Shown here piece by piece: positions 15,061-57,622 of a stretch of DNA of 64,000 bases. This DNA comes from the human T2T-CHM13v2.0 reference genome, Homo sapiens. Where the stretch lies: assembly GCA_009914755.4 (NCBI GenBank), contig CP068257.2:19808001-19872000 (forward strand). Reading direction: 5' to 3'. The position numbers and the translations under genes are program-made. The notes beneath the pieces are model-generated. The model made no database searches and was not told the origin of the DNA. It worked only from the letters and a program-made list of their open reading frames with translations. Within the stretch, counting starts at the first letter, position 1. The number at the start of each line of letters is the position of its first letter.

Positions 15061-15433
15061 TATAATTGTCTAAATGTAATAAGCCAGAAATGGGCACCAA
15101 AAAGTAGAGGTGCTGCTCTAACAAATACCTGAAAATGTAGAAGAGGGTTTAGAATTGGGTAATGGCTAGAAGCTGTAAGAGTTTTGCAGTACATGCTAGA
15201 AAGTGTTGGCATTGCCTCAAATAGACTATTAAGGGAAATTCTTGTGAGGGCCCACAAGGGAAAAAAGAGCTACATAGAAAGTCTCAGTATTCTTTGTGAA
15301 TACTTCTTTGTGAAGAGAATTCTGTTGATACAAATATAAACAGTAAAGGACGTTCTGATGAGGTCTCAGACAAAAATTATGACATGTGTTGGACAATGGA
15401 GGAAAGGGCATCATTGTTAAAAAGTGGCAAAGA

Positions 15434-15729
<296 letters not shown>

Positions 15730-16619
15730 GTGGTGAAGAACTCAGGTACACTATGTTAGTATGCTAGTGTTTTTGGTAAGTTACAACTTGTGTGTGATGG
15801 AATCAGATATTCGCCTGGAAATTTCTCAACAAAGTGTTGAAGAAGCAGTCTGATTTTTCCTGACTGCTTATATTAAAGGGCTAGAGAAATACATGATTTA
15901 AAGATAGAATTATTAATCAAAAAGGATGCAGAACTTTTTACCGTATCCATTTTGTAACAAATGAGAAAAACTGGGAAAGAACATTAAGGGTTTGGCCAGG
16001 AGGACATTTGATATAGAGATTGATTAGCATGGATCAGCCATCTCAGTCGAAGCTAGGAGTTAATTTTTCCAGACAATGGAGGAATGTCCATGAAGCAGAT
16101 ACAAAGATAATTAGAGCTGCCACTCCCATCACAGGATCAGGGTTCAGGTGCCTAGGAGACAGGAAGTTTCAAAGGAAGGTTTGAAGGTGCCTACAGGATC
16201 TCCTAGTGCCATCTCACATCGTGGGCTCTGCTCCTGTTACGCCAGCACTACGCCTCTCATTGTCCCAGCTGTGGCCCCACTGGGGCCTGGTCTCGGGTAG
16301 GACATGGTGGGTGCCCCTTCAGAGAACATAGGCAGCAAACTTTGGTCATGTTCCTGTGGAACCATCTCCACCAGGGCACAATGTGCCCCCAGGCCCTGGG
16401 AGCGTGGCTGCCTCCACGTGGATTTCAGAGGAAGGGCCTCTTAGCAGAGCTGCAGGCTCAGGTCCCTAGCTCTGGAGAGCCGCTGGGCCCCAGCAGAGAA
16501 CTGGTGTAGGAGTGGGGCTCAGGCACTGAGCACACTTAGGGGCAGTGTGGGAGTGGAGCAAATCAATGGGAGTGGAGCCTTCTTAGCCTTGGAAATGGTG
16601 CCTTTATTAGATAGACCTC

Positions 16620-24678: not shown

Positions 24679-24798
24679 CAATGGTTGTTTTGAACAACCT
24701 GGAACCAAATACAACTTATGAAATCAGGGTTGCAGCTGTAAATGGAAAGGGACAAGGAGACTACAGTAAAATAGAAATCTTCCAAACATTACCAGTTC
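24679..24798 (+). CDS. NCAM2: Internal coding exon of 120 nt, C-terminal half of fibronectin-III domain 1 of NCAM2. Encodes (x)[39 protein letters not shown] plus 1 nt; phase-1 at both ends.
   Basis: A long polypyrimidine tract (ttttgttttgttttgtttttcttctag) and AG at 24677-24678 sit immediately upstream. The donor is GTAAGT at 24799-24804. The peptide has the fibronectin-III F-strand motif ([16 protein letters not shown]) and is paralogous to NCAM1 'ETTYAVRLAALNGKGLGE...FKTQPVQ'. The terminal c joins gt of the next exon to make Arg, giving ...LPVR-EPSPP. Confidence 0.85.
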
Positions 24799-40203: not shown

Positions 40204-42528
40204 TTACTGTTACTGAATCCGGATTGCTAAGGCCTCATAGAAAGTCATATCAGAAACAAACCATAAATTAAGAATTGTTTGATTTAGATCTAGGTTTTGT
40301 GAGGCAATTTTAAAGGCTGTGATGATGGGGAATTTGAGAACCTTTCAGATCTTATAGAGTTAACATTATATATTTGCAAAATATGAAAAAAGATCATATA
40401 ATTTTATAACATTTTATTTTTCATTTTAAAATGAAATATAAATTCAAACATATTAGAAATAAGTTATCTGTAATAAACTAGCACATCTTAAGTCTTTTCA
40501 TTTAAGTTAGAGAAGATATAGAGTTTAAAGGTTAAAGTGGTTTTAATTTATTTTTATATTTCATGCATTGTAGACTGTCAAAATAAGTTTTCTGGAATTT
40601 TGAATTTAAAAACCCATTACTTATGTATATTAGATATATTTAACTTTTTGTAAACAATAGGGTAAGTCTAGAGAACATTTATTTGTTGGACTAAAGCACT
40701 ATTTTTTCGTTTTTTATCAACCTACTCCCTTTACATTCATATAAAATATTACATTGATAACAATAATTTTTCTTGTAAGTATGCTAGTGGATACTACATT
40801 TCTTCTTAGTTTATAATTATTAAAAAATAATTTTGTAATTAATATTTTTCATTTTTTCTTATTAAAGATGTACTTATTTTGAAAGATATGTATTTTGATT
40901 TATTTAAAATGGAGTTTCCATAATCAATCGTGTTCCTTTTCAGAATATTCATGCAGCATAACTCCATCTTATTTTATTTTATAAGAAACAAGAATATTGG
41001 GAAACTATAGCAGATTAATTGTTATAAAATGACTACCAAACTATGGATTTCAAGGCTGATAGCATGGCATTTATTGATTTGTTCTGTAATCTTAATGACT
41101 AAAAATACTACTAAACTTCTGGACTGGATATAATCTAATGTTTAAAAAAATCCTTGGAAATAAATAAACTTACTTTGAAAAACATTTTCACCATTTCTTT
41201 TGGCCTGCCACATGTTTGATAACATTTATATTTAACCAAAAAAGACGTTAGTATCTTTCAGTAACTGCTTCCTTCTTTTCCTGAAGACATGTCTAATTTT
41301 AATATTGACTATCAATATAATTTGATGACAATAATTCTGTTCAACATTTTTTATATTCAATGATAAAATAATTCTGCCCTCTGGGAACATGTAATGCATA
41401 CATAATACATACAAAATAGTTGTTTAGATTTAACAAGCTAAAAAAAATAATATAAATCACCACAAAAAATATTGCTAAAATATTTCAGTTACTTTGTATT
41501 TTCATGGGCTTTTAATTTGTACTTCCAATGAACTATACAGTAAAATTATTTTGATCACCTCAACTCTAGTTTCAAGCAACACTAATAAATCCTTCATCAC
41601 TAGATAATTCAACATGAACAGAAAACAACTTTCAAACACATGGCAAATATGAAAATATTATTTTAGGATTACATTTATGGTTGTTTTAGAACATAAGTTT
41701 AAAAATTCTAAAACAATGGTGAAATAGAAGTCCAATTACCTGGGGAAACTTCATCTTAACCCTCTGGAATTTTCAGTCTAACCTAAATATTGATACTACA
41801 CCTGCAGCAGCATTTAGTTTAGCATGTAGTGAAAAAGTAAGTCTAAAAAATATTTTCATAATCTTTGGTTCCTAAAATTGTTTTAAAAGAGATGCAGTGA
41901 CATATGTCTGGAGTTTGCTTATGGCCAATAGGTTAATGCTTCTAGCTTCTATGCTTATTGCAAATTTTAATTATGTGAATATGCAATTTTCACTTATATT
42001 TGTTGGTAGCTTGTTTATTATTAAAATAGAATGGCTTTTATTAAATATATCCTAAGAAATTACGGTAGAAAAAATTACCATCAAACATTGTGGGATATAT
42101 TGAGATCATATTAAAAGTAGCACTGTGAATTCACCAATAGCACAGTGAAATGACTGGTGACTTTTCCCTTGTAATTTACATTTTCAACTTATAAATGAAA
42201 GATATTCACATGTAAGGGATCAGTGACAGAATTAATTTCTGAGTAATGCAGAATAAACATCAATATTGACCTTTGTATGTTTTTAATATGTGACAATACA
42301 TAGAAATGTTTTATACAAGATTTTAGCCATTCTTGTTTTGTATGAAAGTATTTTTTGTAGGTTTGCATTAATTGTTAATGACTTTGTGTAAATCTTGCAT
42401 TAATTATTCTTTTTTCTTTCCTACTGTCACGTTTTTTCTCTTTTGATTTCCTCGTTTGTAACTCTACCCTTTATTTTCTTAATTATTTCATTCTTATTCT
42501 ATTTTCAAAAACAATTTTCATCATGCAG

Positions 42529-42635
42529 ATAAATGCTGTGAAGCGAATAAAGGCGAAAATGGAAGCCAGTCGTGGCAGCTGAATGCTGCTGGGTTTTCTT
42601 TCATTATAGCCATAAGTTTGTCTTGCGTGTTTTAA
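42529..42635 (+). CDS. NCAM2: Candidate alternative 3'-terminal coding exon: GPI-anchor attachment signal for a GPI-linked NCAM2 isoform. Encodes (D)KCCEANKGENGSQSWQLNAAGFSFIIAISLSCVF followed by a stop.
   Basis: An 80-nt polypyrimidine tract ends in catgcAG at 42527-42528. Only the phase-1 frame stays open, which is exactly the phase left by the exon ending at 35545 (g+at=Asp). The peptide has a small-residue omega region (N-G-S-Q-S), a roughly 9-residue spacer, a 13-residue hydrophobic tail and then TAA at 42633-42635. Four CpGs fall in 107 nt although the surrounding intron is CpG-depleted. Its position after fibronectin-III domain 2 matches the NCAM1 GPI exon (exon 15). Confidence 0.6.
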
Positions 42636-42718
42636 TGTCATTGTTATATCATATGGTATATCCTCTTATGCCCTGAAAATTAAAAAAAAATAGTAATAGC
42701 AAGGCTTATCTAAAATTA

Positions 42719-42724
42719 TAATAA
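42719..42724 (+). promoter_or_regulatory. Candidate polyadenylation signal AATAAA for the GPI-exon transcript. An ATTAAA variant lies at 42678-42683.
   Basis: The hexamer lies 84 nt downstream of the TAA stop of the candidate terminal exon, in an A/T-rich context. Confidence 0.35.
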
Positions 42725-44091
42725 AATATTTCCTAAGGTCCAATTAATTATGCATGTATCTTCACCCATGAATGATTAAGCTTTTTCTCCTTCCCCCAAT
42801 TATCAACCTTTTAAGTGGATAATTTGTCAGAAAATCAAATGAAGGAAATTCAATCGGGATTGCTACTTTCAGCTACCAGTTCACTGCATAACATACTTTA
42901 TTCTAAATTTTCCATTAATTCCTAAAGTTGACCTTGTTAAATAGCATGTCACTTGTACTTGAAACTTAAGCCTTTGCTACATCTAATCTTTCATTATTAT
43001 TTTGCAAATAATTAAATATCCATGGCCATACTTTTTAAAAATCATAATTTTATTATGTAGAATTGTGGATCACTACTATTGTTTTTTTTACTGTTACTTT
43101 TAAGTATAAGTTTCCAACTTTATGAACATTTCTAATATTTCAATGTGTTTACCATTTATATAAAACATAAGCATTATATTTTATTAGATGTGTATCCCAA
43201 TTGTGCTGCTTATTTTCCCTTTGTTGAACCAAAATGTCTTAAGGAATAAATGTGAAACAGTTTCCTATTTTAAATTTGAACACCGATTAATTTTTTTCAT
43301 TAAGTGAAAATATCTCTGCAATTTTCCCAGAATGAATGTTAAATTAAATTTGTATATGTCTAAAAAGTTACACCCAATTCACTGGATTTAGATTACATTT
43401 TGAGCTGACCTCAAGTCCTATTGTTCTAACATAAGTAGTTATTTATTACATTTTTCTGGACATCTGGTAGTCAGAATTCTTGCAAGCATTAGAGAGAGAG
43501 AAGAAAATATTATAGACACTCCTTTAAAGAAGTTGAAATCAAGATGGGAAGAAATTGAGATTGGAACTAGATTCCAAATTTCAAAGGAATTTCGATTTGA
43601 GGGAGTAGCATGAAGAATGATTTTTGGTCTTTGCAAATTTTCATTATGTGAATATGCAATTTTCACTTAAGTAATCTTTACCTAAGTAATTTCAAAACAA
43701 GTAAAGAGTGTTTGTGTTTTTCACTTGCAACCACATCTTAACAAGTGACTTTTACTACTTATTTATTTAGGACAATAGGAAACAACCAGATGTACATATA
43801 TGCATAAAAGTGACCATAACATACTTGGTAAATCAAATGATTGGGTTCTGGACTCTGTGATTCATTCATCAAAAGCTATCATTTTGTTGAACAGAAATAT
43901 TTTTCGTGTCTCTTTTTAAAGAGATAGCTACAGAATCTTTTCATATGAGGGCTAGGCCTCTCTTTCATAGTAGATTTTCTTTTAACTTATCTTTTCCAAA
44001 CTCCTAGCTGTCAACTGCTATCCTTTCTTGTAATCTAGTAATAGACCTGTAGACTGCAGAAGCAACCCATCAACCGATAAAACACACTTCT

Positions 44092-44479
<388 letters not shown>

Positions 44480-47064: not shown

Positions 47065-47370
47065 ATTTATTTTTTTATTTTCTTGAGACAGACTCTTGCT
47101 CTGTCGCCCAAGCTGGAGTGCAGTGGCCTGATCTCAGCTCACTGGCACCTCCGCCTCCTGTGTACAAGCAACACTCATGCCTCGGCCTGCCTAGTAGCTG
47201 GGTGTGCTACTAGGCGTGCAGCCACCACACCTGGCTAATTTTGTATTTTTAGTAGAGGCAGGGTTTCACCATGTTGGCCAGGCTGGTCTCGAACTCCTGA
47301 ACCCAATTGATCCTCCTGCTTCAGCCTCCCAACATCCTGGAATTACAGGCGTGAGCCATGGTGCCCAGCC
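47065..47370 (-). mobile_element. Alu (AluS-like), antisense, followed by a CT-rich low-complexity tract.
   Basis: It reads ttttttattttcttgagacagactcttgctctgtcgcccaagctggagtgcagtggcctgatctcagctcactggcacctccgcctcc...gtagctgggtgtgctactaggcgtgcagccaccacacctggctaattttgtatttttagtagaggcagggtttcaccatgttggccaggctggtctcgaactcctgaacc...ggaattacaggcgtgagccatggtgcccagcc. Confidence 0.9.
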
Positions 47371-47565: not shown

Positions 47566-50500
47566 GCCATGAATGAATGGAATATATTTCCTCTATTATG
47601 TTTCTGTTCATTGTTTGTAAATTTTAAAATACTAACCTTTGTGGTATAGAAATATGTCATAAAAGCTTCAGCAAATCTAATATATTGGATAGATAGCTGA
47701 AATCTGCATATTTCAAATAACTGAATATACAGATATTCTACAAATTGTCTTTAAAATGATTACAACTTATGTTGAAATTGGTGACGAGGCATTTCCAAAT
47801 TAATCTCATAAATAGTATTGTTTAATCATTAATATTTGATAGTTAAACATAATATTCAGAATATATTTCCACAGTAAATTTTGGGACTTAACTAAAGAAA
47901 AAAATTAACACTTATTAACTCGTTCTCTTACCAATTACCATATAAATTGGAGTATTATTCTAAAGTTAATATGGTTTGTCTTTTAAATACAAAGTTGTAT
48001 TATTCCTTCTACATGTTATACTTACATAATCCCAATTTTTATCTAAGGAAAACATTCCCTCAGTTTAAATCTAATTTTATTTTTTTCAAAATTAGACAAA
48101 GATGAGAGTTTAATATCCATGCTTTGTTTTCCAAAAACCTTTAGTTTTGTTGTCTAAAATTAAGAACTCAACAAAGATCTCTTGTAATAATTCAACATAT
48201 TCCCTGGCTATTAACTAATTTCCAAGCCTGAACTGTCAGTAAATGTTGCACATAGCCTGGAATAGTCCATAACATCTGTATTAGCTAATATTCTGTAAAA
48301 CTAAAAAAAAACAATATCCAAGAAATGTAAAAAATAATTATGTTTAAGAATTCTATTAGTGTTTCTGAGATGGTCTTAACTGCATTTCATCTCCTTTGTT
48401 GGTAGACTATTATTTCATCTACTTTTTAAGGATACTTTCATCCAAGTAGAATTAAACTTAATTTTAATTGTGAACTAATCTAATATTGGTTGTATTAAAT
48501 TTAGATATATTGAAAGTTCTAAAACTATGTATGCTTAAGTTAAATTCAATTAGTCTTTATCATTTCATTTTAGTTAGTAAAAATATGTTACACACTGTAA
48601 AGAATGCATAATAATGAGACACAACTTCAGTTTAGAAAATATATTTTTATTTTTATTCTATGTATGTACTGAATAGGGGCTACGACATAAATCTAGCTAG
48701 TCTTATTTTTTTTCCTAAAAAGCAAGCAATTACAACTACTGTTTTAAATAGTGTACACAATTCATGTACCCCTTTCAAGAATATTTTTCTCTTACATTTT
48801 CATTGATGTCATGTATAACGCTTCTGTTTTAAAGTACTTCTGATCATTTAATTGCATTCGTTTTCATCATAGCTTGTTTTCTTGAAAAAAAAGTATGCTA
48901 TAAGTGTATTGTCCTCAGTATCATCTTATTTAAAACCCTCAACATAATATCCAGCACTGTGTGTAATCCTATGCGTGTGTTTCATAGTATATTAAATGTC
49001 ATTTTATTTTCTGTACCTCTGTGTCTCCATTGTTGTAATAAAGAAAACTGAGGAAAAGCTTTGTTATACGTGTTTTCTTTATTACTGGTACAGCCTTTTT
49101 TGTCCTTGTCGAGTGTTGTCATATCTAACTTGATCAAATTTAATACAAACATTTATTTACTTAGGAGCAGGTAATAAACTTATACTCATTAAGTTACTCA
49201 ATTTTTGGATAACCCATACATCATCAGCAGATTCATAACAATTGTATATTGTAAAAATAATTTCGTGACAATATCAAATATTGTTACTTCCATTGTAAAC
49301 TTGTTCTAGTGTCTTCATAAAAACATCGATCTCTAGTGGGAGGCCAAAATAATCATATATTTCAATAAAACACATGAACATAGTTAACAATTTCAGTAAT
49401 ATAAAGATTGTTAACTAGTCTCCATTGCTAGCAAAAGTCCATAAAGGAAATATAAACACGTAAAGTGATTTTTCTCCAGTTCCTTTGGTCATTTCTTTTG
49501 TTTTGGGCACCAAATGAATAAAGTTGCAGAAATTGATTAACATTCTGTGCTTATCCACTGCAAAGGTATGAAACACAAATAGTAAGTTGAAATTTTGGAA
49601 TAATACTATAAGTAATATAAAAATTATTTAATTAGCTTTTATAGTGTAAAAATAATTTTTGACATAGATATAAACAGAAAAGTCATATTTTTCTTTTAGA
49701 GCAAAATGTTACATTGCCTGATAAATATGAAATGATGCCAAAATTCAAAAGAGAAAATGTTCATTTTCAGGATTTTGGATTGTTTTGGAGCATATTTAAT
49801 TTCTCTTATTCCATGACAGTCCAGTCCAAAATGTATATTTTAATATATACATTATTATACACCTTTTGAAACATGCTTGTGTATATTTCAAAATGAAAAT
49901 TTTAATGCATTTATAAGTCTTATATATTGTAATACTTATACTTCTTTTAAATGATACAATAGTTATAGTAGTTTGAAACATACACCAGAACAGTTATTTC
50001 TTTTTATTATTTTTGTTTTTATTTTTCCTGAATCCCCTTGATAATAGGATGATATCAAATGGAGGGTATCTTGGAATTCTTAGGAATTTGTATGATTACT
50101 GTTGTAGTAAATATATATTACTTTATTAATTTTTTATTGTTCTACTATTCTGGGCCATTGTGAAGAAACTAAAGAGATTTGAGAAAATCTGAAGCTATTA
50201 TAACCAAACTCTATTATTTTATTATATCAACAAACTGAGGATCAGAAAAACCAAATAGTCATTGATATAGTCAAGCAACTTTGATTCTCAGTTTTCCTCC
50301 TATCTTTGTTGTATTACACTAAATCAAAGTTGGTACAAGTAAATTTCTGACCTATAAGTTATATGGTCATATGTCTTAGGTCTAGTTCCTTTGCTATTTT
50401 CTTGATTGGCCTGTGGAGAACAACAACAAAAAATCCCTATGTGTCAGAGGAAAGGCTATGTGTACAACAACCACGGTTTCATCCATTAATCACAGTATTT

Positions 50501-56533: not shown

Positions 56534-56619
56534 ACATGTTGTACCCATACAGCTCTCATTCAATTATTTCTGTAACACATGTTGTACCCATACAGCTCTC
56601 ATTCAATTATTTCTGTAAG
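56534..56619. repeat. Perfect 43-bp tandem duplication (two copies of acatgttgtacccatacagctctcattcaattatttctgtaa).
   Basis: Copy 1 is 56534-56576 and copy 2 is 56577-56619. They differ only at the last base. Confidence 0.95.

Positions 56620-57319: not shown

Positions 57320-57622
<303 letters not shown>

What the first reader, a model, noticed from the sequence alone, without database searches (positions are those of the whole stretch)
42421..42724. Candidate alternative last exon encoding a GPI-anchor signal (GPI-linked NCAM2 isoform)
An 80-nt pyrimidine-rich tract ends in AG at 42527-42528. Only one of the three frames stays open past the first few codons. That frame is exactly the one required by the phase-1 donor of the fibronectin-III domain 2 exon at 35545 (g + at = Asp, giving ...PNIIK-D-KCCEANKGENGSQSWQLNAAGFSFIIAISLSCVF*). 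The 35-residue tail has the canonical GPI-signal architecture: a small-residue omega site (N/G/S cluster), an 8-10 residue hydrophilic spacer, a 13-residue hydrophobic C-terminus, then a stop, with ATTAAA/AATAAA 45-90 nt downstream. Four CpGs in 107 nt stand out against the CpG-depleted intron, suggesting constraint. The position after fibronectin-III domain 2 mirrors the NCAM1 exon-15 (NCAM-120) arrangement. This would make NCAM2 produce a lipid-anchored isoform from this exon.
Basis: partly seen in the sequence, partly recalled or inferred. Interest (0 to 1): 0.65.

Follow-up and report, generated by a model that had tools for sequence, protein, structure and literature searches.

The report
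Known GPI-anchor exon of human NCAM2

Summary
An AG at 42527-42528 opens a 107-nt reading frame (42529-42635). Joined to the phase-1 donor at 35545, it reads ...PNIIK-DKCCEANKGENGSQSWQLNAAGFSFIIAISLSCVF*. The neighbouring exons are 100% identical to human NCAM2 in PDB entries 2JLL and 2KBG.

- The published mouse OCAM-GPI-specific RT-PCR reverse primer (PMC4395419) matches 42567-42586 with 2 mismatches, where none is expected by chance.
- I recovered the orthologous exon from four other species in Logan genomic contigs. All four keep the AG, an indel-free 107 nt, the frame and the stop position.
- Exon identity to the human sequence is 76-96%, against 29-66% in the flanks. dN/dS is 0.23-0.52.
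- All five tails have a polar first half and an uncharged, hydrophobic last 16 residues.

Two details need correcting.
- The only omega site that fits the small-residue rule in all five species is Ser13 (omega+2 = Ser15), not the N of "NGS".
- The nearby ATTAAA and AATAAA are not conserved and are common in this AT-rich DNA. The 3' UTR probably runs further.

The GPI-anchored isoform (OCAM-GPI, also called NCAM2.2) is established in mouse, and a review states it exists in human. Novelty: already known.

The parts
35365..35545 (+). NCAM2 exon for the second half of fibronectin-III domain 2. It ends in a phase-1 GT donor (AAA G|gtaag).
   Evidence: The translation is 100% identical to human NCAM2 in PDB 2JLL and 2KBG.
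42448..42528 (+). Pyrimidine-rich tract and 3' splice acceptor (cag|AT) of the alternative last exon. The proximal 20 nt are purine-interrupted, which suggests a weak, regulated acceptor.
   Evidence: 71% pyrimidine, top 1.1% of 80-nt windows. The AG is conserved at the same column in 5 species. The 100 nt before the AG are 79% identical to L001, against 68% for the intron further upstream.
42529..42635 (+). Coding part of the GPI-specific last exon: (D)KCCEANKGENGSQSWQLNAAGFSFIIAISLSCVF plus the TAA stop.
   Evidence: The mouse OCAM-GPI reverse primer matches 42567-42586. The exon is 107 nt without indels, with a stop at the same codon, in 5 species; 96% identical to L001 and 76-79% to L002-L004, with dN/dS 0.23-0.52.
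42529..42546 (+). D-x-C-C-E-A motif, invariant in 5 species. It would remain in the mature GPI-linked protein. The Asp codon is G (35545) + AT (42529-42530).
42564..42566 (+). Ser13 of the tail (AGC), the best-conserved candidate omega (GPI attachment) residue. Omega+2 is the invariant Ser15.
   Evidence: It is the only position where omega and omega+2 are small in all 5 species. The rule comes from PMC7125958. This is inferred, not shown.
42594..42632 (+). C-terminal hydrophobic segment of the GPI signal, FSFIIAISLSCVF. With the preceding AAG it forms an uncharged run of 16 residues.
   Evidence: Mean Kyte-Doolittle hydropathy is 2.0-3.4 over the last 13 residues and 1.8-3.0 over the last 16, with no charged residues, in all 5 species.
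42636..43375 (+). Probable 3' UTR of the GPI-isoform mRNA. Its true end is not determined.
   Evidence: 75% identical to L001, against 68% for the upstream intron. None of the five human poly(A) hexamers in this stretch is conserved in L001.

Best explanation
This is the GPI-isoform-specific alternative last exon of human NCAM2 (also called OCAM or RNCAM; the isoform is NCAM2.2 or NCAM2-GPI).

Proposed mechanism:
1. When the donor at 35545 is spliced to the acceptor at 42528, rather than to the distant transmembrane exon, the ORF gains 35 residues and stops.
2. The transcript is then polyadenylated somewhere downstream of this exon.
3. In the ER, the hydrophobic C-terminus acts as a GPI-attachment signal. 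GPI transamidase cleaves at a small residue, most probably Ser13 of the tail in ...KGENG-S-Q-S..., and attaches the GPI.
4. The result is the full five-Ig, two-FnIII ectodomain anchored by lipid in the outer leaflet, with no cytoplasmic tail.

Shown here:
- The sequence anatomy.
- Orthology to the mouse GPI exon.
- Purifying selection on the frame, length, stop position and signal architecture.

Inferred:
- Use of the exon in human tissue.
- The exact omega site.
- The poly(A) site.
For: - Identity of the gene: the window exons are 100% identical to human NCAM2.
- Junction and ORF.
- Link to the mouse isoform: the OCAM-GPI-specific reverse primer GCATTCAGATGCCATGACTG (PMC4395419) matches 42567-42586 on the minus strand with 2 mismatches, and no shuffle gave a match. 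The forward primer matches FN2a at 26767-26786.
- Orthologues: four copies (L001-L004) were recovered through read-through ORFs.
- Conservation: the AG, an indel-free 107 nt and the stop codon sit at the same positions in all of them. The other two frames contain stops in every species. dN/dS is 0.23-0.52. Exon identity is 76-96%, against 29-66% in the 100-nt flanks.
- Signal architecture: polar residues 1-19 and an uncharged, hydrophobic 20-35 in all 5 species, with small omega and omega+2 residues at positions 13 and 15. This fits the signal definition in PMC7125958.
- Literature: TM and GPI isoforms of NCAM2 are described in PMC7949136 (two bands in mouse olfactory bulb membranes), PMC8304497 (NCAM2.2 enriched in the insoluble, raft fraction) and PMC8471948 (states both isoforms exist in human and mouse).
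Against: - No human RNA-seq junction or cDNA could be examined with these tools.
- All experimental papers I could read concern mouse. The claim for human rests on one review sentence (PMC8471948).
- No dedicated GPI predictor (PredGPI, big-PI) was available, only a rule-based check.
- The proximal polypyrimidine tract is weak.
- No conserved poly(A) signal was found within the roughly 740 nt covered by L001.
- The species behind L001-L004 are unknown, so the evolutionary depth is inferred from divergence alone.
Confidence: 0.93

Rival explanations
1. The exon is conserved and was functional ancestrally, and still is in rodents, but in human it is rarely or never spliced in. On this reading human NCAM2 is effectively TM-only.
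For: No human expression data could be accessed. The experimental papers I read are all on mouse. The proximal polypyrimidine tract is weak. The list-style review of human GPI-anchored proteins, PMC7125958, does not mention NCAM in its main text.
Against: The human copy is fully intact: AG, frame, stop and signal architecture are all present. It differs from L001 at only 4 of 107 nt, against 32% divergence in the upstream intron. The review PMC8471948 states that both isoforms are transcribed in human.
Confidence: 0.05
2. The exon yields a secreted or soluble NCAM2 ectodomain, or a tail-anchored form, rather than a GPI-linked one. The hydrophobic end would be a degron or a retained membrane segment.
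For: A small soluble OCAM, about the size of the GPI form, is found in conditioned medium (PMC4395419). No GPI predictor or experiment was run here.
Against: A 13-16-residue uncharged C-terminus with nothing after it, preceded by a conserved small-x-small motif 7-10 residues upstream, is the GPI-signal layout and is too short for a stable TM helix with a stop-transfer (PMC7125958). The short isoform is membrane- and raft-associated in mouse (PMC7949136, PMC8304497). Shedding of GPI proteins explains the soluble form.
Confidence: 0.015
3. Chance ORF: an AT-rich intron produces a hydrophobic tail after an AG by accident.
For: AT-rich codons favour F, I and L. One other ORF, at 49700, also passes the crude GPI rule. 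Poly(A) hexamers are frequent.
Against: The exon is conserved across five species while the flanks decay. There are no indels, the stop position is conserved and dN/dS is below 1. The mouse isoform-specific primer matches it.
Confidence: 0.005

Closest known systems
Mouse/rat OCAM-GPI (RNCAM-GPI, NCAM2.2, NCAM2-GPI), described by Yoshihara et al. 1997 and Alenius & Bohm 1997 (cited in PMC8471948; originals not readable here)
   Same: Same gene and same exon position after FnIII-2. The mouse isoform-specific primer maps in this exon at 18 of 20 bases, translating to QSWHLNA against human QSWQLNA. L004 carries the same SQSWHL. The outcome is the same: a GPI-anchored ectodomain with no cytoplasmic tail.
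   Different: This is the human copy. About 40% of tail residues differ from the rodent-like copies L002 and L004, mostly hydrophobic-for-hydrophobic swaps. Protein-level evidence in human was not found in the papers I could read.
NCAM1 exon 15 / NCAM-120 (the GPI-anchored isoform of the paralogue NCAM1)
   Same: Same logic. An alternative terminal exon placed between the last FnIII exon and the TM exon supplies a GPI signal and its own 3' end, while the ectodomain is unchanged (PMC7949136, PMC9360506).
   Different: It is the paralogous gene. As I recall the NCAM-120 sequence (not tested here), the tail shows no obvious similarity and lacks the D-x-CCEA motif.
Generic metazoan C-terminal GPI-attachment signal (PMC7125958)
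   Same: Small omega and omega+2 residues, a short polar spacer, a hydrophobic C-terminus, and 22 residues from omega+1 to the end, within the stated 20-30 range.
   Different: The hydrophobic stretch is 13-16 residues, shorter than the 'about 20' quoted. The polar spacer is 4-7 residues rather than 'about 10'.

Membership tests
NCAM2 gene (human) | Exons encode the NCAM2 FnIII-1 and FnIII-2 sequence | tested here: met
   136 of 136 residues are identical to PDB 2JLL, and the match to 2KBG runs through PNIIKD.
NCAM2-GPI / OCAM-GPI isoform-specific exon | Orthology to the sequence that distinguishes mouse OCAM-GPI mRNA from OCAM-TM | tested here: met
   The published GPI-specific reverse primer matches 42567-42586 with 2 mismatches, where none is expected by chance.
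NCAM2-GPI / OCAM-GPI isoform-specific exon | In-frame splice from the FnIII-2 donor, then a short ORF and a stop, conserved across species | tested here: met
   Phase-1 donor plus acceptor gives Asp and then 34 codons. The AG, the 107-nt length and the stop position are identical in 5 species, with dN/dS 0.23-0.52.
NCAM2-GPI / OCAM-GPI isoform-specific exon | The spliced junction is actually present in human mRNA | not testable with these tools
   There is no transcript or RNA-seq resource here, and the protein databases searched hold only prokaryote-style ORF calls. Only a review statement is available (PMC8471948).
GPI-attachment signal | Small residue at omega and at omega+2 | tested here: met
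   Position 13 is S/S/S/G/S and position 15 is S in all five species. It is the only position that passes in all 5. N11-G-S passes in 4 of 5.
GPI-attachment signal | Polar spacer followed by an uncharged hydrophobic C-terminus that ends the protein; signal of 20-30 residues from omega+1 | tested here: met
   Mean hydropathy is -0.5 to -1.5 for residues 1-19 and +1.8 to +3.0 for residues 20-35, with 0 charged residues in the last 16. There are 22 residues from omega+1 to the end. The hydrophobic part is shorter than the textbook figure of about 20.
GPI-attachment signal | Accepted by dedicated predictors, or shown experimentally (PI-PLC release, transamidase dependence) | not testable with these tools
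   PredGPI, big-PI and NetGPI are not available offline. Raft enrichment and membrane association of the mouse short isoform are reported in PMC8304497 and PMC7949136.
Alternative last exon with its own polyadenylation site | Functional poly(A) signal downstream of the stop | tested here: inconclusive
   Human hexamers lie at 42679, 42720, 43011, 43245 and 43343. None is conserved in L001 and L001 has none in the aligned stretch. Hexamers occur once per 303 nt by composition.

The most novel reading that the evidence does not exclude
The tail is more conserved than a GPI signal needs to be. D-x-C-C-E-A and G-x-Q-S-x-x-L-x-A-A-G-F are invariant in five species, and the di-cysteine lies upstream of the best omega candidate, so it would stay on the mature protein next to the lipid anchor. 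This membrane-proximal Cys-Cys could give the GPI isoform a property the TM isoform lacks, such as disulfide-linked dimerisation or another isoform-specific interaction or modification. Alternatively, part of the nucleotide conservation could reflect splicing or poly(A)-choice regulatory elements rather than protein constraint.
Probability: 0.12. Interest if true: 0.4.

Novelty: already known. Interest (0 to 1): 0.12.

Why it matters
The work confirms that a reader using sequence alone can recover a genuine alternative terminal exon and its biochemical consequence.

Biologically, the TM/GPI switch decides whether NCAM2 can signal through a cytoplasmic tail or instead sits in lipid rafts. This matters for olfactory axon sorting and for work on the chromosome-21 candidate gene NCAM2 in Down syndrome, autism and Alzheimer's disease. 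It adds nothing new to what was published in 1997 and later.

Two minor points may be useful:
- A conservation-based omega-site prediction (Ser13 of the tail).
- The invariant CCEA motif.

Tried and rejected
- The search for homologous proteins with the joined FN2b + tail peptide returned only prokaryote-style ORF calls that read from the exon into the intron. It gave no spliced NCAM2 proteins, so it could not test the junction.
- A concatenated query of all ORFs overlapping the exon found only one contig, L001.
- A degenerate-codon DNA pattern for NAAGFSFIIAI scanned against metagenome contigs found nothing.
- The transmembrane exon was sought in the window using motifs recalled from memory (GAVIG, LLILV and others) and was not found. 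It probably lies beyond 64000, but this test is weak.
- The original 1997 papers (Yoshihara; Alenius & Bohm) are not held in the library, so the published mouse tail sequence could not be compared directly. The primer from PMC4395419 served instead.
- P0033 appeared to lack the stop. This turned out to be a TGA=Trp translation by the gene caller, and in the standard code the stop is at the same position.
- The repetitive multi-stretch hits P0024-P0030 and similar were rejected as low-complexity matches.

Full report
**Observation**

- The exon 35365-35545 ends ...CCC AAC ATT ATT AAA G|gtaagc, a phase-1 donor.
- An AG sits at 42527-42528.
- G + 42529-42635 reads DKCCEANKGENGSQSWQLNAAGFSFIIAISLSCVF, followed by TAA.
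- The 80 nt before the AG are 71% pyrimidine, in the top 1.1% of 80-nt windows of this sequence.
- The 107 nt hold 4 CpG, against a mean of 0.64. Only 2.5% of such windows reach 4.

Small corrections:
- One of the other frames is open for 17 codons.
- The 20 nt next to the AG are only 50% pyrimidine.
- ATTAAA at 42679 and AATAAA at 42720 exist, but such hexamers occur once per 303 nt on this strand.

As a chance control I applied a crude GPI-signal rule to the tail following every one of the 1577 AG sites downstream of the donor, in the required phase. The rule asked for an uncharged hydrophobic C-terminal run of 12-25 residues and small omega and omega+2 residues 3-10 residues upstream. Only this ORF (from three nested AGs) and one other, at 49700, passed.

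**Which gene**

The exons at 24679-24798, 26735-26856 and 35365-35545 all have AG/GT boundaries. Joined, they translate to a sequence 136/136 identical to human NCAM2 in PDB 2JLL. They also match 2KBG through ...PNIIKD. The window carries Alu-like sequence. It is therefore human, or a near-identical primate, NCAM2.

**Link to the known isoform**

Reviews and primary papers describe two NCAM2 isoforms: a transmembrane one (NCAM2.1, NCAM2-TM) and a GPI-anchored one (NCAM2.2, NCAM2-GPI, OCAM-GPI).
- PMC8471948 states that both are transcribed in human and mouse.
- PMC7949136 shows both bands in mouse olfactory bulb membranes.
- PMC8304497 finds NCAM2.2 enriched in the insoluble, raft fraction.
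- PMC4395419 gives RT-PCR primers specific for mouse OCAM-GPI.

The reverse primer from PMC4395419, GCATTCAGATGCCATGACTG, matches the window once, at 42567-42586 on the minus strand, with 2 mismatches. No shuffle of the window gave a match. Its forward partner matches 26767-26786 in the FN2a exon. The primer's reverse complement translates to QSWHLNA, against QSWQLNA in the human sequence. The candidate exon is therefore the orthologue of the sequence that defines the mouse GPI isoform.

**Conservation**

The protein databases available here hold prokaryote-style ORF calls on raw contigs, not spliced eukaryotic proteins. I used that to my advantage. ORFs that happen to read through the intron into this exon brought in genomic contigs from four other species:
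- L001 came from a concatenated-ORF query.
- L002-L004 came from an exhaustive HMMER search with the stop-to-stop ORF 42483-42632.

L001 aligns to the window over 2.4 kb at 74% identity. Identity by segment:

| Segment | Identity to L001 |
|---|---|
| Upstream intron | 68% |
| 100 nt before the AG | 79% |
| 107-nt coding segment | 96% (103/107) |
| Next ~740 nt | 75% |

In L002-L004 the exon is 76-79% identical to the human sequence, while the 100-nt flanks are 29-53%.

All five species share these features:
- The AG is at the same column.
- The coding segment is exactly 107 nt with no indel.
- The stop is at the same codon (TAA in four, TGA in L003).
- The other two frames contain stops.
- Pairwise dN/dS is 0.23-0.52.

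The apparent read-through in P0033 was an artefact of a TGA=Trp translation by the gene caller.

The five tails:

| Species | Tail |
|---|---|
| human | DKCCEANKGENGSQSWQLNAAGFSFIIAISLSCVF |
| L001 | DKCCEANKGENGSQSWQLNAAGFSFIIAISLSWMF |
| L002 | DTCCEAHKGGIGSQSLQLNAAGFVFLIVISILCIF |
| L003 | DRCCEATRPENGGQSLQLNAAGFSFIVVITFWCMF |
| L004 | DTCCEARTGGNGSQSWHLSAAGFVFFIVITLLCVF |

**GPI-signal anatomy**

PMC7125958 defines the signal as a small omega residue (S, N, D, A, G, C or T), a small omega+2 residue, a hydrophilic stretch and then a hydrophobic stretch, spanning 20-30 residues from omega+1.

In all five tails, residues 1-19 are polar (mean Kyte-Doolittle hydropathy -0.5 to -1.5). Residues 20-35 are hydrophobic (+1.8 to +3.0) with no charged residue.

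I scanned positions 6-17 for omega candidates. Only position 13 (S,S,S,G,S), with position 15 (invariant S) as omega+2, fits the small/small rule in every species. N11-G-S fits in four of five, because L002 has Ile there. With omega at Ser13, the hydrophobic FSFIIAISLSCVF starts at omega+10 and the signal is 22 residues long. This is a rule-based inference; no dedicated predictor was available.

**Mechanism**

What the sequence and conservation show is a conserved alternative terminal coding exon, in frame with the FnIII-2 donor, ending in a GPI-type signal.

Inferred from the literature on the mouse isoform and from the NCAM1-120 analogy:
- Splicing 35545^42529 and using a downstream poly(A) site, instead of splicing to the TM exon, produces the short mRNA.
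- GPI transamidase then removes about 22 residues and attaches GPI, giving a raft-located ectodomain without a cytoplasmic tail.

The TM exon was not found in the window using motifs recalled from memory, so it probably lies beyond 64000.

The poly(A) site is unresolved. None of the five human hexamers between 42679 and 43343 is conserved in L001. Sequence conservation above intron background continues to about 43375.

**Comparison and novelty**

This is the human copy of a known exon of a known isoform, so it is already known. It works like NCAM1 exon 15 (NCAM-120), but it belongs to the paralogous gene.

What I could not show is human expression. All the experimental papers I could read are on mouse, and the original 1997 papers are not held in the library.

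The only mildly unexpected feature is the degree of conservation beyond what a GPI signal needs. D-x-CCEA is invariant, and this di-cysteine would remain on the mature protein.

**Verdict**

Novelty is nil and interest is low.

Noticed in passing
window 42529-42546: The D-x-C-C-E-A motif at the start of the tail is invariant in five species. It lies upstream of the likely omega site, so two adjacent cysteines would stay on the mature GPI-linked protein next to the membrane. Their function is unknown.
   Followed up: partly
window 42636-43375: Sequence downstream of the stop is more conserved with L001 (75-77%) than the upstream intron (68%), and it contains no conserved poly(A) hexamer. The 3' UTR of the GPI isoform is probably much longer than about 90 nt.
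   Followed up: partly
L003 977-1429 (protein P0033): The database ORF was called with TGA read as Trp, so it runs through the real stop. In the standard code L003 stops at the same codon as human. This is a caution for using these ORF calls on eukaryotic contaminant contigs.
   Followed up: yes
window 49700-49870: This is the only other AG-preceded ORF downstream of the donor that passes my crude GPI-tail rule (EQNVTLPDKYEMMPKF...MYILIYTLLYTF). It is probably chance. Conservation was not checked.
   Followed up: no
window 56534-56618: A perfect tandem duplication of a 43-nt unit (2.0 copies, 100% match) sits in intronic sequence.
   Followed up: no
window 10570-11232; 8870-8908; 31041-31088: There is a long degenerate (TA)n tract of about 660 nt, and two (AC)n microsatellites.
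   Followed up: no
window ~4900-6000; ~1121-1451, 15421-15756, 37400-37740, 38141-38474, 44259-44471, 47100-47330, 57322-57600: Stop-to-stop ORF translations look like an L1 ORF2 fragment and multiple Alu copies. This is consistent with primate intronic DNA.
   Followed up: no
proteins P0011-P0014, P0017: FN2b exon orthologues from other species end in ...PNIIT or ...PNIIA rather than ...PNIIK, so the last residue before the splice junction varies between species.
   Followed up: no
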